Shown one piece after another: positions 1 through 35,421 of a DNA stretch of 64,000 nucleotides. Source of the stretch: an uncultured Thermococci archaeon. GTDB taxonomy: Archaea; CAYQAE01; CAYVLA01. The notes below the pieces were generated by a model. That model was not told the DNA's origin. It saw nothing but the letters and a program-made list of their open reading frames with translations, and did no database searches. Position 1 is the first letter of the stretch. Every line of letters begins with the position of its first letter. The translations under genes were made by a program, and so were the position numbers. The DNA lies in NCBI GenBank assembly GCA_964549615.1, contig CAZJVP010000101.1, forward strand, positions 1 to 64,000. The letters run 5' to 3'.

Positions 1-293
1 ATCGTGGGCTCGGAGATCTCCCTGACCACTATGGCTCCTCCCTTCTTGAGCAGGGACACCTGCCTGTTGGTGCGAAGGTAGGTCTTCCACAGCCAACCCG
101 TCTCGGTGATCGTTGTGTTGTCGCTGAAGTGGAACTCGTGAACCTTGCCGAAGGCATAGTGTGAGGTCAGGATTCCCTCGTGGAGGACCCTCTCCTTCGC
201 CCAGAGCGGCCTGGTCACCGAGATCGTCAGCGCGATTCCCGCGGCGAGGAGGAGAACTGCGATCAATGTGTACGCCTGATCTTCCTTGCTCAA
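1..293 (-). CDS. Hypothetical protein with N-terminal TM/signal anchor (partial, runs off left edge)
   Basis: Manual translation from TTG at 293 gives MSKEDQAYTLIAVLLLAAGIALTISVTRPLWAKERVLHEG..., open to position 1. TATA-like ATTTAA on the minus strand at 318-323. Confidence 0.6.
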   Translation of the reverse strand, partial: MSKEDQAYTLIAVLLLAAGIALTISVTRPLWAKERVLHEGILTSHYAFGKVHEFHFSDNTTITETGWLWKTYLRTNRQVSLLKKGGAIVVREISEPT

Positions 294-472
294 CGGCGGG
301 GCGAGGCAGGCCGCTCCTTAAATGTCTCACGGGCGCGAATGGGGCCGTCTAAACGATCTTCTACACGGCCCTGCGCTTTTTCATCACCCCTGTTTATCAA
401 GAATGGGCAAAATTCTACAACTCGGGCCGAAAATGGCCGGCCCCGCCCTACAATTCAACGCATTCCGATATC

Positions 473-481
473 TTTTTAAGT
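473..481 (+). promoter_or_regulatory. Archaeal TATA box (TTTTTAAGT) for the putative large ncRNA
   Basis: AT-rich box in GC-rich context, about 30-35 nt upstream of the first paired segment (515) of the structured region. Confidence 0.55.
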
Positions 482-758
482 AATCGTGGTAATTATCGGA
501 CGCTTTGGTCTGCAGGGCAGACAGGAAGCGGACATCACGGGAAAACGGTTCCAGGCCCCTCCGGGGGTCCCGGGATCGGTGATGAACGCCCGTATGTTCT
601 CGGGCCTCGTGTTCGAGGATGTGCGGGTGCATGGGCCATGGGATTGATCCGATGCATTCGGTTTTTTCCCCGGATGCGACGGAGAAGATGGTCTTCCCGC
701 AAGGATCTCGCCCCGTTGAGGCGTGACCTATCCCGGAAATCCCGCGAAGGATGGGTTA

Positions 759-839
759 CAGGGGTGAGCAAAGGAGCAGGCCTCCAGACCCAAGCCTCAA
801 GAGAGGGCTGGTGGCCTGGTCTTTCCGCTTCCCTGCAAA
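759..839 (+). repeat. Copy A of an ~80-nt structured internal repeat
   Basis: GGGGTGAGCAAAGGAGCAGGCCTCCAGACCCAAGCCTCAAGAGAGGGCTGGTGGCCTGGTCT...TCCGCTTCCCTGCAAA aligns with 1070-1152. Confidence 0.85.
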
Positions 840-1069
840 CCTGCGGGCCGGAAGCGGAAAGGAGGCGGATGTCGCCCGGAATGGACGTCAGGCTTCGGCC
901 TGATGTCGGCGCTCGACGCGTCCGTGCGAAAGCACGACGCGTGAGGCCGCTGGGAGCGACTCGCTTTTCCCGAGGTTCCGTCGGGAAAGGCGAAGAACGG
1001 CTGGCATCCCGTAAAGGGACTTGCCCCGCTGAGGAACGGAGCGTCCGGAACCTCCCATAAAGGACGCCT

Positions 1070-1152
1070 CGGGGGGTAAGCAAAGGAGCAGGTTTCCAGA
1101 CCCGATCCTCAAGAGAGGATGGTGACCTGCTCTGTGTCCGCCTCCCCGCAAA
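1070..1152 (+). repeat. Copy B of an ~80-nt structured internal repeat
   Basis: GGGGTAAGCAAAGGAGCAGGTTTCCAGACCCGATCCTCAAGAGAGGATGGTGACCTGCTCT...TCCGCCTCCCCGCAAA aligns with 759-839. Confidence 0.85.
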
Positions 1153-1451
1153 TCGGGCCCGCATGACCTTTTCTTCGTTGCGCCCACGCTGTGTTGAACC
1201 ATCGAGGTGCCTGCGCGGACCTACCGTGTTCCTGACCCCATGCCTGGGGTCGAACGCGGGTCGAGGATCTTGCCGGAAGGCGAGACGAAGGCGACTTGGG
1301 CCTGCTTTCCGGTTCTTCCCATTTCCCGCCTCTGAGCTCCTGCCCAACCGTACACATTCCCATCGGTAGACAGTTTGTTGCGGTCCATGAAACCCCATCG
1401 GGGTCGAAGGCTCGAGAGATTTTTCAGCCCGTGGGCTGGCGTTGGGCCGAG

Positions 1452-25001: not shown

Positions 25002-25862
25002 GTGGGTTCGCCACTTCCCATCACGGACAACCACATTCACATCGATCCCCTGCACGGGCTGGGACCGGCTGAGGTCGCAAGGCTGTTCTCGAAGTCTGGG
25101 GGGACCCACCTTATCGTCGTGAACAAGATGGTGCAGGACTGGGATCTTGCCCTCCGCTCCGTTGATGACTTCAAACGGGCAACAGAATCCTTCCTCCAGA
25201 TGGTGGACAGGTTGAACTCCCAAACCCGCGTTCGAGCGTTCGCGGTGGTAGGCCCGCACCCGGCCGAGCTTGTCAAGCTCTGGGAGACGGCCGGGCCGGA
25301 GAAAGCGAAGTCGGTCTACGGGGAATGCCTGCGGTGCTGCGCCGAGCTCGTGAGGGCGGGAAGGGCCGTCGCGATAGGCGAGGTGGGCAGGCCACATTTC
25401 CCTGTTTCGGAGGAGTTGCTTGAAGCCTCAAACGACCAACTGGATCTAGCCTTTGAGCTTGCGGCAGACGTAGGATGCGCGGTGCAGGTTCATATGGAGA
25501 CCAGCACCCCGGCGCAGTTTGAGGAGCTGGCATCGAGGGCAAGGCGTGCGGGGCTTGACCCGAGGAGGGTCGTGAAACACTTCTCGCCTCCCCTCGTGGC
25601 AGCTGGCCAGGAAACGGGCGTGTTTCCCTCCGTGATCGCCACCAAGGAGAACGTCACCCAGGCTCTAAAGCAGGGGGACAGGTTCCTTGTGGAGACGGAC
25701 TACGTGGATGAGCGTGCCCGGCCCGGCGCAGTGCTAGGACCCAGGACGGTGCCGAGGGTTACACGCACGATGTTGGAGGAAGGCAGGCTCAGCGAGGACT
25801 CGGCGTGGCGAATCCACAAGTTCAGCGTGGAAGCGCTGTATGGCGTGGAGGTGTCGTTGTAG
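25002..25862 (+). CDS. TatD-related metal-dependent hydrolase (archaeal)
   Basis: DNHIH, GPHPAE, IGEVGRPHF, VKHF, ETDY...RPGAVLGP.TVP. Confidence 0.9.
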   Translation: MGSPLPITDNHIHIDPLHGLGPAEVARLFSKSGGTHLIVVNKMVQDWDLALRSVDDFKRATESFLQMVDRLNSQTRVRAFAVVGPHPAELVKLWETAGPEKAKSVYGECLRCCAELVRAGRAVAIGEVGRPHFPVSEELLEASNDQLDLAFELAADVGCAVQVHMETSTPAQFEELASRARRAGLDPRRVVKHFSPPLVAAGQETGVFPSVIATKENVTQALKQGDRFLVETDYVDERARPGAVLGPRTVPRVTRTMLEEGRLSEDSAWRIHKFSVEALYGVEVSL

Positions 25863-25895
25863 CCGAGGCCGTCGAGATCCTAGATGGCGGGCGGC

Positions 25896-27392
25896 TTACC
25901 GTGGGCGCTTCCCTTCTGCCTCACCGAAGGTCCTTCCTGCCCGGCACCCCGCGGTTGCCCTCCCAAATGGCGCACGTTTTCGGTTCAGTTTGGCCCGTCT
26001 TCTGGCTTTCATCCTGAGGGCGGCTCCGGCGGCCAGACTCACCTCCAGAAGCGCAGTGCGGGGCAGGGGGACTTCACCGATGGGAGCGCCTGCCAACGTG
26101 AGGGTGATCTGCTTCGTCGTGTTCAGGTCCACCGCGGCAGAGCTGGAACGCCCCGCATGATAGGCCCCGACCTGGTACGCCCCCGCGGCCCAGCGCCCAG
26201 TGGCATTGATTATCTCCTGCGCCAGGAGCAGCGTCGCGATGCCGGAGGAGTCCGTCAGGGCGGAGTCGGCCTTCGTTCCGTCTTGGAAGTTGGCCGTCAC
26301 ATTCGCCCCCGATACCGGTCCGGTGGAGTCCACGACGTTGACATCCAAGCGCTGGCAGATGTAGATGTTCGATTCTTGATTAGCTGAGTACAGGTCGGCG
26401 GTGGAGTTCCAGATCCACACTCGGGCGTTAACGTTGCAGTCAACGCTGGTCAGCCTGCACGAGGAAAACCGGGTCTGCGAACCACCGTATGCTGAGAACG
26501 GGCCGCTGATCGTTGAGCCGGCCATTTCCAGAACCTCACCCTCCGTGCGCACGCTGTAAAGCTCGGACTCCAAGACGGCCACATGCGAGTCGCTAAATAT
26601 GGTCAATGCCCATCCACGCACCTCGGTGTTTGCGACCGTGATCTTCGGTGCGGTTCCCCAGGGACGGAGCGAGACGGAGCAGTTGGCCAGGAAATTCCAG
26701 AACCTGACAAAGCCGGGCCGCAAACGCACAACCGAGCAGTTCCCCCTGTAGATTCTCGCAAGCAGAAAGCTGTTGATGTTTGATTCTCGGACGTCCACCG
26801 TCGAATTCGTATTGCAAAGGATGTACGGAATCAGGCATCCCCGGATTTCTAGGGACGAATGGTCATCGGCCATCATTCCCTTCGTCGCAGAGCAGCCCGT
26901 CAGCTGACAGGATGCGAAATTGCTCAGGGACATAAAGTGGAAGGTGGAGTCCGCGACAAGGAGCGAAGAAGATCCCTTCGGTTCGATTCTGACCTCTTTC
27001 TCCATCCGGCACTTCTCGAGCCGCCCGGAGCTATTTCCCAGCAGATGCAGCCTCAGGTCGTAGCCATTTGCCGTCACGGTGCTATTGTACGCGATCAGGC
27101 GCGGGCTGCCCGCGGCGGGGTTGCGCAGCGTGATGTTGTGATTCATTCCCTTCTGTGTGAAGTTGAGTACGGCATTTCTGAGAAGCAGCGTCGCGTTTTG
27201 CTCGATGATTATGCTCCCGTTGATGTCGAATCTTCCCTCCAGCACAGTGACCGTGTTGCCCGAGATGACCAGATTGCCCTGGTGGATGGCGGGGGTCGTG
27301 CTCAGGGCGTTTCTGGACTGTGACCCGAATGTTAGCACCATGACAGAAGAAATGAGAAATATCGCACGAGCAAGAGAAGCGGACCTTTTCAC
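25896..27392 (-). CDS. Secreted beta-helix-like protein with CarboxypepD-reg-like domain and C-terminal anchor
   Basis: SD-like GGTGAT upstream, signal peptide, Asn/Ser-rich beta-helix-type repeats, V.D..GPVSGANVT...TDSSG, C-terminal IGE-hydrophobic-basic tail. Confidence 0.72.
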   Translation of the reverse strand: MKRSASLARAIFLISSVMVLTFGSQSRNALSTTPAIHQGNLVISGNTVTVLEGRFDINGSIIIEQNATLLLRNAVLNFTQKGMNHNITLRNPAAGSPRLIAYNSTVTANGYDLRLHLLGNSSGRLEKCRMEKEVRIEPKGSSSLLVADSTFHFMSLSNFASCQLTGCSATKGMMADDHSSLEIRGCLIPYILCNTNSTVDVRESNINSFLLARIYRGNCSVVRLRPGFVRFWNFLANCSVSLRPWGTAPKITVANTEVRGWALTIFSDSHVAVLESELYSVRTEGEVLEMAGSTISGPFSAYGGSQTRFSSCRLTSVDCNVNARVWIWNSTADLYSANQESNIYICQRLDVNVVDSTGPVSGANVTANFQDGTKADSALTDSSGIATLLLAQEIINATGRWAAGAYQVGAYHAGRSSSAAVDLNTTKQITLTLAGAPIGEVPLPRTALLEVSLAAGAALRMKARRRAKLNRKRAPFGRATAGCRAGRTFGEAEGKRPR

Positions 27393-35346: not shown

Positions 35347-35421
35347 GGGCTCGTGGCCTAGCTAGGATAAGGCGCCAGGCTTCGGACCTGGATATCGCGG
35401 GTTCAAATCCCGCCGGGCCCA
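35347..35421 (+). tRNA. tRNA-Arg: tRNA-Arg (anticodon TCG), intronless, CCA not encoded
   Basis: Acceptor stem GGGCTCG/CGGGCCC, anticodon arm CCAGG-CTTCGGA-CCTGG, T-arm GCGGG-TTCAAAT-CCCGC. TTTAA box about 25-30 nt upstream. Confidence 0.95.

What the first reader, a model, noticed from the sequence alone, without database searches (positions are those of the whole stretch)
515..1345. ~830-nt ornate non-coding RNA candidate in an archaeon
Seen in sequence: an interval with no credible ORF lies downstream of a TATA box (473-481). Its ends pair in nested order (GGGCAG 515-520/CTGCCC 1340-1345; GCGG 528-531/CCGC 1326-1329; GGGAA 539-543/TTCCC 1316-1320; CAGGCCC 552-558/GGGCCTG 1298-1304). Inside are dense hairpins: GACGTCAGGC-TTCG-GCCTGATGTC (884-907, cUUCGg), CGTGC-GAAA-GCACG (923-936), TCTTGCC-GGAA-GGCGAGA (1268-1285) and GACCCCA-TGCC-TGGGGTC (1234-1251). 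A multibranch domain is closed by GTCGC/GCGAC (871-875/956-960). G-U pairs work only on the + strand. Established: archaeal RNase P and SRP RNAs are much shorter, and their landmark motifs are missing here; RNAs this large and ornate (OLE, ROOL, GOLLD) are known mainly from bacteria. Inference: an undescribed large archaeal ncRNA, possibly a ribozyme, scaffold or regulator.
Basis: partly seen in the sequence, partly recalled or inferred. Interest (0 to 1): 0.92.

Follow-up and report, generated by a model that had tools for sequence, protein, structure and literature searches.

The report
Two circular RNAs, one archaeal gene
An uncultivated archaeon carries a gene whose transcript appears to be cut and sealed by the tRNA-splicing machinery into two intricately folded RNA circles of about 300 bases each; such RNAs have not been described before and their function is unknown.

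Summary
Conservation runs from a TATA-like box (474-481) to about 1158.

The gene is a tandem of two homologous modules of about 300 nt. Covariation is strong: 93 of 220 pairs change on both sides. A pseudoknot is complementary in 15 of 15 modules.

Each module is enclosed by a bulge-helix-bulge (BHB) motif: a 4-bp helix between two 3-nt bulges, in 8 of 8 copies of each module. In all four metatranscriptome runs laid (four studies), the locus is covered by two contigs that close on themselves. Their joints, 838->523 (316 nt) and 1149->858 (292 nt), fall in those bulges.

The genome encodes the splicing endonuclease EndA and the ligase RtcB. RNase P and SRP RNAs lie elsewhere. Nothing in Rfam matches.

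The RNA was found only in the four genomes of one family of a five-genome phylum. Biogenesis is well supported; function is unknown.

The parts
470..484 (+). Promoter: TATA-like box TTTTTAAG (474-481) with conserved upstream bases
   Evidence: Conserved in all 6 upstream regions aligned. It ends 25 nt before the first conserved helix (507). No transcription start was measured.
505..522 (+). 5' leader: 5' strand of the outer helix of BHB-A (507-516), 5' strand of the 4-bp central helix (517-520), first two bases of bulge ACA (521-523)
   Evidence: Conservation begins at about 505. Outer helix 507-516/840-849 is 100% paired, with 5 of 10 pairs changed on both sides (helix 1). BHB table.
523..838 (+). 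Circle A, 316 nt (module A). Closed by inner helix 524-532/824-832. Pseudoknot 640-644 with 739-743.
   Evidence: Self-closing contigs of 346 nt with joint 838->523 (1 nt ambiguous) in X1, X4 and X18; in X17 the same junction is shown by the two loose ends. Covariation. Pseudoknot.
839..859 (+). Spacer between the circles: last base of bulge AAA (837-839), 3' strand of the BHB-A outer helix (840-849), short outer helix and 5' strand of the central helix of BHB-B (854-857), first bases of bulge AAA (858-860)
   Evidence: G002 copies carry a 10-nt insertion here.
860..1151 (+). Circle B, 292 nt (module B). The joint is ambiguous over AAA, so it could be any of 858-1149 to 861-1152. Closed by inner helix 861-870/1136-1145. 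Pseudoknot 951-956 with 1052-1057.
   Evidence: Self-closing contigs of 322 nt with joint 1149->858 (3 nt ambiguous) in 4 of 4 runs..
1152..1177 (+). 3' trailer. Conservation ends at about 1158. T-rich tract 1167-1177 is a possible terminator.
   Evidence: Conservation collapses after ...CGCAAATC in all homologs, followed by T-rich sequence in most. Termination was not measured.
713..722 (+). Invariant motif CCG-N-UGAGG of module A (module B: 1026-1035)
   Evidence: Invariant columns in 16 of 16 modules.
766..818 (+). Invariant RAGC-AAAGGA linker plus hairpin d with an asymmetric internal loop, module A (module B: 1078-1132)
   Evidence: helices 4 and 5: 8 of 13 outer pairs covary; the inner CCUC/GAGG stem is invariant.

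Best explanation
Window ~505-1175 (+) is a dedicated non-coding RNA gene with its own archaeal promoter. Its ~650-670-nt primary transcript carries two homologous ~300-nt modules in tandem, much as an rRNA operon carries 16S and 23S. [quoted passage not shown] This releases two covalently closed RNAs: circle A (523-838, 316 nt) and circle B (~860-1151, 292 nt). Each circle folds into a conserved multi-helix structure with a pseudoknot, GNRA/UNCG-type loops and invariant unpaired motifs.

Shown here: the gene's limits, the module homology, the conserved structure, the BHB anatomy, RNA contigs closed on themselves at the bulges, and the presence of both enzymes.

Inferred: that EndA and RtcB do the cutting and joining, and that the circles rather than the short leftover leader/spacer/trailer are the functional products. 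The working function is also inferred. I think a stable protein-binding scaffold or RNA machine is most likely, with the two paralogous circles possibly acting together. Circularity would protect them from exonucleases and heat.
For: Limits and homologs:
- Conservation starts after a conserved TATA-like box and stops at ~1158.
- 1176-1397 is absent in L131 and L133.

Two modules:
- Direct repeats are spaced 312 and 326 nt.
- 15 modules align over their full length.

Structure:
- RNAalifold predicts 144 pairs, 56 of them compensated.
- On 16 model-aligned modules, 93.5% of cells are paired, against 38-52% when partners are slid. 20 of 36 pairs change on both sides, and 0 of 500 shuffles reach this.
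- Full length: 86.5% paired against 37-50% slid, 93 of 220 pairs changed on both sides, 0 of 500 shuffles.
- The pseudoknot is 5-8 bp in 15 of 15 modules. It reads GGGAU/AUCCC in A, GGGAG/CUCCC in B and GGAAGA/UCUUCC in one B copy.

BHB:
- A 4-bp helix between two 3-nt bulges occurs in 8 of 8 complete A copies and 8 of 8 complete B copies.

RNA:
- 24 metatranscriptome runs from 16 studies hold part of the stretch.
- In 4 of 4 runs laid (4 studies) the locus is covered by exactly two contigs, of 346 (= 316+30) and 322 (= 292+30) nt.
- They are permuted differently in each run and go back on themselves at 838->523 and 1149->858, inside the bulges predicted beforehand from covariation.
- 4 of the 6 differences between these contigs and the window form two compensatory pairs: 554/570 and 890/901.

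Enzymes:
- EndA domain PF01974 at 99, 66.9 and 43.4 bits; RtcB PF01139 at 607 bits.

Not coding:
- Substitutions are flat by position mod 3, and most indels are not multiples of 3.
- No stop-free frame exists round either circle.

Precedent:
- BHB definition and a functional circular SRP RNA made by EndA/RtcB: PMC4731332 (passages read).
Against: - Only assembled contigs were available, not raw reads. A contig closed on itself shows a circle or a head-to-tail multimer. It cannot show the strand, the ends, or whether circles are later re-opened.
- Whether the joined form also exists in DNA runs was not given (table 5b).
- The precursor itself was not seen.
- The joints are ambiguous by 1 nt (A) and 3 nt (B).
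- The outer helix of BHB-B is only 2-4 bp and has an A.C mismatch in the G000 lineage (3 of 8 cells unpaired at columns 384/694).
- The central helix of BHB-A has an A.C mismatch in G003 and L130.
- The pseudoknot of module A shows no change on both sides within A copies (helix 9).
- There are only about six independent lineages, all in one family, so shuffle controls overstate significance. Alignment A6 was fitted to the model.
- Cleavage by EndA and any function are untested.
Confidence: 0.8

Rival explanations
1. The circles are by-products: BHB introns in the 5' leader of the fumarate hydratase operon. The functional output is then the spliced leader/mRNA or a cis-regulatory effect on the downstream genes.
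For: In 5 of 7 loci the RNA lies directly upstream of, and co-directional with, fumarate hydratase alpha/beta (PF05681, PF05683): G000, L131/L132, L133, G001 C95/C191, G003, G002:C29. The gap is only ~55-90 nt in all of these except the window.
Against: - Two loci (G001:C24, G002:C11) are not next to fumarate hydratase, and in G001:C24 the next gene is convergent.
- Conservation, invariant motifs, pseudoknots and covariation all lie inside the circles. The leader and spacer are conserved only where they form the BHB, and the trailer is not conserved.
- T-rich sequence follows the RNA in most copies.
- Both modules have been kept since before three genera split.
Confidence: 0.07
2. The self-closing contigs do not reflect monomeric circles. 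They would instead be head-to-tail multimers, permuted linear RNAs re-opened elsewhere, or an assembly effect of the two similar modules.
For: De Bruijn contigs cannot tell a circle from a tandem repeat, and no raw reads were laid. Re-linearised circular intermediates are known for archaeal rRNA (PMC12918454, abstract start in the search listing and passages read).
Against: - The same two joints occur in 4 of 4 runs from 4 studies, with contig lengths exactly unit + 30 and different permutations.
- The joints fall in BHB bulges derived independently from covariation.
- The joints link A to A and B to B, not A to B, so cross-assembly between the modules does not explain them.
Confidence: 0.06
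3. One reading: one linear ~830-nt ornate RNA (515-1345) closed by pairing of its two ends.
For: The complementary strings exist. The single-sequence minimum-energy fold pairs the 5' end with the 3' region.
Against: - 1176-1397 is missing in L131 and L133 and not conserved elsewhere.
- It holds no third module (best 5.9 bits).
- The 5' partner strings belong to the covarying BHB-A and inner helix.
Confidence: 0.02
4. A mobile or selfish element: a viroid-like replicon with a DNA copy, or an RNA tied to a transposon, phage or plasmid.
For: The RNAs are ~300 nt, closed, highly structured and non-coding. There are two loci per genome in G001 and G002.
Against: - There is a DNA template with a conserved promoter at a syntenic place in three genera.
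- No ribozyme or other Rfam family matches.
- Pattern hits in viral contigs: 0.
- No BLAST match in the 72,556 plasmid records or the 50,697 phage records.
- No transposase gene lies nearby.
Confidence: 0.03

Closest known systems
Circular SRP RNA of Thermoproteus (Plagens et al. 2015, PMC4731332; abstract and passages read)
   Same: A functional, highly structured ncRNA of ~300 nt. It is transcribed with a short leader from a TATA promoter, cut at a BHB by the tRNA-splicing endonuclease and circularised, and the circle is the working form.
   Different: That RNA is a permuted member of the SRP family. Here no Rfam family matches and a canonical SRP RNA is elsewhere. Here two paralogous circles come from one transcript, and the function is unknown.
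Circular pre-16S/pre-23S rRNA intermediates and circular tRNA introns of Archaea (PMC12558985 passages; PMC12918454 passages; PMC3326292 abstract)
   Same: A polycistronic precursor with one BHB-bearing processing stem per product, matured by EndA plus RtcB, giving abundant circles.
   Different: The products are neither rRNA nor tRNA introns. They are a lineage-restricted family of ~300-nt RNAs with their own conserved fold.
Large ornate bacterial ncRNAs: OLE, GOLLD, ROOL, raiA (10.1101/2024.12.08.627333 and PMC9723947, search listing and abstract starts only)
   Same: Large size, many conserved helices, invariant unpaired nucleotides, narrow distribution, unknown biochemical function.
   Different: Those are bacterial or phage RNAs and linear. 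No similarity was detected by their Rfam models. This one is archaeal, modular (2 x ~300 nt) and circular.
Viroid-like covalently closed circular RNAs and Obelisks (10.1101/2022.07.19.500677, PMC10827157; search listing and abstract starts only)
   Same: Small, closed, highly base-paired RNAs that show up as self-closing contigs in metatranscriptomes.
   Different: Those have no DNA template and replicate as RNA. This one is encoded in the chromosome behind a promoter in four genomes, has BHB motifs in place of ribozymes, and keeps its gene neighbourhood.

Membership tests
Substrates of the archaeal tRNA-splicing endonuclease (BHB-dependent circular RNAs) | Central 4-bp helix flanked by 3-nt bulges on opposite strands (definition read in PMC4731332) | tested here: met
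   8 of 8 complete copies of module A and 8 of 8 of module B. In G003 and L130 the first central pair of A is A.C.
Substrates of the archaeal tRNA-splicing endonuclease (BHB-dependent circular RNAs) | Helices on both sides of the motif (strict hBHBh' form) | tested here: inconclusive
   BHB-A has a 10-bp outer helix (100% paired, 5 pairs covary) and a 9-bp inner helix. BHB-B has a 10-bp inner helix but an outer helix of only 2-4 bp (helices 1, 3, 16, 18). This fits a relaxed BHB.
Substrates of the archaeal tRNA-splicing endonuclease (BHB-dependent circular RNAs) | The ends joined in the RNA lie in the two bulges | tested here: met
   Joints 838->523 and 1149->858 (ambiguity 1 and 3 nt) in RNA contigs of 4 of 4 runs; the bulges are 521-523/837-839 and 858-860/1150-1152. 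That the cut falls after the second bulge base is recalled, not tested.
Substrates of the archaeal tRNA-splicing endonuclease (BHB-dependent circular RNAs) | EndA and RtcB are present in the organism | tested here: met
   PF01974 at three places (99, 66.9 and 43.4 bits) and PF01139 at 607 bits in G000.
Substrates of the archaeal tRNA-splicing endonuclease (BHB-dependent circular RNAs) | Cleavage by the enzyme, and covalent closure (RNase R resistance) | not testable with these tools
   Needs bench work or raw reads.
Any Rfam 15 family (including RNase P, SRP, OLE, GOLLD, ROOL, group I/II introns, self-cleaving ribozymes) | Score at or above the family's gathering threshold | tested here: not met
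   Nothing at 505-1175 at gathering thresholds. At E<=10 the best hit is 17.6 bits against a threshold of 218. RNase P and SRP RNAs are on contigs C46 and C72.
Cis-regulatory leader / riboswitch | Always upstream of, and co-directional with, the regulated gene class | tested here: not met
   5 of 7 loci precede fumarate hydratase and 2 do not; one of those faces a convergent gene.
Viroid-like RNA replicons | No DNA template | tested here: not met
   DNA copies in 4 genomes and 4 metagenome contigs.

The most novel reading that the evidence does not exclude
The two circles are the RNA subunits of a previously unknown archaeal machine. This would be a pair of paralogous, covalently closed, ornately folded RNAs that assemble with each other and/or with lineage-specific proteins into a catalytic or architectural particle. 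It would be the first 'ornate large ncRNA' class of Archaea, and the first whose native form is circular.
Probability: 0.2. Interest if true: 0.95.

Novelty: new variant of a known kind. Interest (0 to 1): 0.86.

Why it matters
BHB-dependent circular RNAs in Archaea have so far been tRNA introns, rRNA processing intermediates, or permuted versions of universal RNAs. Here a dedicated gene seems to exist only to make two large circles with conserved folds.

If confirmed, it would add a new class of large structured RNA in a barely known archaeal phylum. It would also show that the tRNA-splicing machinery matures stand-alone ncRNA genes with several products, as in an operon. The function of such large conserved RNAs then becomes directly testable, because the molecules are defined to the nucleotide and appear as well-covered contigs in public RNA data.

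It is also a caution for surveys of viroid-like circular RNAs, because chromosomally encoded circles of viroid size occur in metatranscriptomes.

Tried and rejected
- Rfam at gathering thresholds and at E<=10: nothing relevant.
- Reading frames: the long ORFs 535-1398(-) and 638-1060(+) are not conserved. Substitutions are flat by position mod 3 and indels break the frames. No endless frame runs round the circles.
- A third module in 1150-1500: best 5.9 bits.
- The 17-mer scan of genome contigs was too unspecific. It gave 119 or more stretches, and of the 80 rows listed only 4 were the loci already known.
- Viral contigs gave 0 hits; plasmids and phages gave no match.
- Model R1 over 151 archaeal genomes found only the four family genomes plus one 19.8-bit hit that I take as noise. 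The DNA hits of 23-27 nt in G015 and G035 are likewise taken as chance.
- RNAduplex between circles A and B returned full-length duplexes and told nothing.
- Short conserved motifs and their complements occur in G000 at chance numbers only.
- The coiled-coil neighbour has no Pfam family beyond coiled-coil noise and no Atlas hit.
- Supplementary files of papers were not opened; none bears on a claim here.
- The laid contigs leave 200-522, 839-857 and 1150-2000 without cover. Word depths (up to 675) cannot rank abundance.

Rows left out:
- L132 (same BLAST figures as L131) was left out of all alignments.
- L130 (98% like G003, cut by the contig end) was left out of A3, A4 and A6.
- The half copy G001:C95end was left out of the module alignments.
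- The 20.6-bit minus-strand hit was excluded from A6 by the E-value limit.

The script machine was lost, so a BLAST of 1160-1400 against the RNA was not done. and the repeats stand in for it.

Full report
**Observation.** The interval folds far better than shuffles on the + strand (-443.3 kcal/mol, z -9.83, 20 shuffles). The - strand gives z -5.82. No Rfam family reaches its threshold anywhere near it. The only gathering-level hit in the 64-kb window is a tRNA at 35347-35421. At E<=10 the best hit in 300-1500 is 17.6 bits against a threshold of 218.

**Limits.** A DNA search of 61 genomes gave real matches only in G000-G003, the four genomes of family f1. G001 and G002 each have two loci; one G001 locus is split over two contig ends. 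A motif scan of metagenome contigs added four loci: L130 (close to G003) and L131, L132 and L133 (89-90% identical to the window).

Alignment shows a conserved TATA-like box (window 474-481) in all six upstream regions. Conservation starts at ~505 and stops abruptly at ~1158, followed by T-rich sequence in most copies. In L131 and L133 window 1398-1450 follows within ~15-25 nt of window 1175, so 1176-1397 is missing there. That stretch is unique in G000 and holds no further module.

**Two modules.** Direct repeats spaced 312 and 326 nt extend to the whole length. Module A (507-849) and module B (850-1158) of every copy align with each other. Many columns are invariant across 15-16 modules: CCG-N-UGAGG, RAGC-AAAGGA, CCA...CC-N-A-N-CCUCA...AGG...UGG, and UCCC-N-GCAA. 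Module A always has a hairpin about 40 nt longer. The duplication therefore predates the split of the three genera.

**Structure.**
- RNAalifold on 10 rows gives 144 pairs, 56 with compensatory changes. On 15 modules it gives 64 pairs, 39 compensated.
- A covariance model of the 3' subdomain (R1) aligned 16 modules. 93.5% of cells pair, against 38-52% when partners are slid. 20 of 36 pairs change on both sides, and 0 of 500 shuffles reach this.
- A full-length structure of 220 pairs pairs in 86.5% of cells, against 37-50% slid. 93 pairs change on both sides, and 0 of 500 shuffles reach this.
- A pseudoknot joins a GGGA-containing strand (640-644; 951-956) to the loop of hairpin c (739-743; 1052-1057). 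It is 5-8 bp in 15 of 15 modules and differs coherently: GGGAU/AUCCC in A, GGGAG/CUCCC in B, GGAAGA/UCUUCC in module B of G002:C29.
- 226 of 1902 paired cells are G-U, which supports the + strand.
- Substitutions are flat by position mod 3 (for example 70/79/79 against G003), and 10-19 of the 13-21 indels per distant homolog are not multiples of three. No frame is open round either circle.

**Bulge-helix-bulge motifs.** The ends of each module pair in a fixed pattern.
- Module A: outer helix 507-516/840-849, a 4-bp helix 517-520/833-836, a 3-nt bulge on each strand (521-523 and 837-839), and inner helix 524-532/824-832.
- Module B: 4-bp helix 854-857/1146-1149, bulges 858-860 and 1150-1152, inner helix 861-870/1136-1145.
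- The pattern holds in 8 of 8 complete copies of each module.
- The outer helix of A is 100% paired, with 5 of 10 pairs covarying.
- Weak points: the outer helix of B is only 2-4 bp, and the central helix of A starts with A.C in G003 and L130.

This is the motif that the archaeal tRNA-splicing endonuclease recognises, as defined in PMC4731332 (passage read).

**RNA.** Twenty-four metatranscriptome runs from 16 studies, labelled microbial mat, hot springs and others, hold part of window 480-1400; 21 of them hold shares of 0.38-0.42. I laid four runs from four studies on 200-2000. Each run gave exactly two contigs.
- One contig is 346 nt and covers 523-838. In X1, X4 and X18 it goes back from 838 to 523, a 316-nt unit. 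In X17 the same junction appears as loose ends on both sides.
- The other contig is 322 nt and covers 858-1149, going back from 1149 to 858, a 292-nt unit, in all four runs.
- Both lengths equal unit + 30, as expected for a cycle in a k=31 graph (my inference). The permutation differs from run to run.
- The joints fall in the bulges derived beforehand, with 1 nt and 3 nt of ambiguity.
- The contigs differ from the window at six places. Four of these are two compensatory pairs (554G>C with 570C>G; 890A>G with 901T>C), and one lies in a tetraloop (800).

Predicted circle sizes in the other lineages are 306-316 and 288-295 nt. Folded as circles, the G000 sequences give z -6.8 and -6.6 against 100 mononucleotide shuffles.

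**Machinery and exclusions.**
- G000 encodes EndA domains at three places and RtcB.
- Its RNase P RNA (174.5 bits) and SRP RNA (186.1 bits) are on other contigs.
- There are no matches in viral contigs, plasmids or phages.

**Distribution and context.** Class and phylum hold five genomes in the collection. R1 hits 4 of 5 (2, 4, 4 and 2 modules) and misses G004, which is 98% complete. In 151 archaeal genomes only those four hit, plus one 19.8-bit match.

In 5 of 7 loci the gene sits between a divergent small membrane-protein gene and fumarate hydratase alpha/beta. The second loci of G001 and G002 lie instead next to a ~555-aa coiled-coil protein, which is 40% identical between the two. That protein occurs in all four family genomes and is elsewhere in G000.

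**Mechanism.** The best reading is a promoter-driven precursor of ~650-670 nt. EndA cuts at both BHBs and RtcB joins the ends, giving two stable circles. The maturation route is inferred from anatomy, joints and enzymes. That the circles are the functional products is inferred from where conservation lies. The function is unknown; I favour a protein-binding scaffold or RNA machine.

**Comparison and novelty.** The closest precedents are the circular SRP RNA of Thermoproteus and the circular pre-rRNAs and tRNA introns. They share the maturation route but belong to different RNA families.

Five full-text searches found no description of such an RNA:
- circular RNA, bulge-helix-bulge, archaea, non-coding;
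- viroid-like, metatranscriptom, bulge-helix-bulge;
- Hadarchaeota, circular RNA;
- circular RNA, archaea, metatranscriptom, splicing endonuclease;
- large noncoding RNA, archaea, circular, unknown function, covariation.

The library lacks most subscription journals. I rate the finding as a new variant of a known kind: a new RNA family and gene layout using a known maturation route.

**Caveats.** The RNA evidence is contigs only, there are about six independent lineages, one alignment was fitted to the model, and there is no bench evidence. The rule that the cut falls after the second bulge base is recalled from memory.

Noticed in passing
window 1176-1397: A ~220-nt stretch between the RNA gene and fumarate hydratase. 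It is absent from the 89-90%-identical loci L131 and L133, is unique in G000 and is not a third module. It holds hairpins 1234-1251 and 1268-1285, and imperfect complements of 851-876 (26 nt, 81%) and 982-998 (17 nt, 88%). Its origin is unknown.
   Followed up: partly
L004:3-1325 (+), L007:2645-3643 (-); G000:C30 ~25215-26860 (-): A ~555-aa coiled-coil protein with a conserved ~130-aa C-terminal domain of no known family lies next to the second RNA locus in both G001 and G002 (40% identity, E 1e-79). It occurs in all four genomes that have the RNA and not in G004. It is a possible partner, or merely a syntenic neighbour.
   Followed up: partly
window 3-293 (-); L131:3901-4251; L003:2461-3102: The neighbourhood upstream of the RNA gene is conserved: a divergent ~97-aa membrane protein with no Pfam family, a small Cys-rich protein, and a corrinoid (B12-binding) protein.
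   Followed up: partly
G000:C88:58736-59533 (-), G000:C90:41769-42002 (-): There are three hits to the catalytic domain of the tRNA-splicing endonuclease: two in one 414-aa frame and one in a second gene. The subunit form of the enzyme, which governs tolerance of relaxed BHBs, was not worked out.
   Followed up: no
window 843-849 and 1156-1162: In the G000 lineage the 3' strand of the outer helix of BHB-A could instead pair with the trailer (7 bp) and so extend the weak outer helix of BHB-B. That would imply ordered processing, A before B. This was seen by eye only and is not conserved outside the lineage.
   Followed up: no
window 35347-35421 (+): A tRNA gene (Rfam RF00005, 66.4 bits).
   Followed up: no
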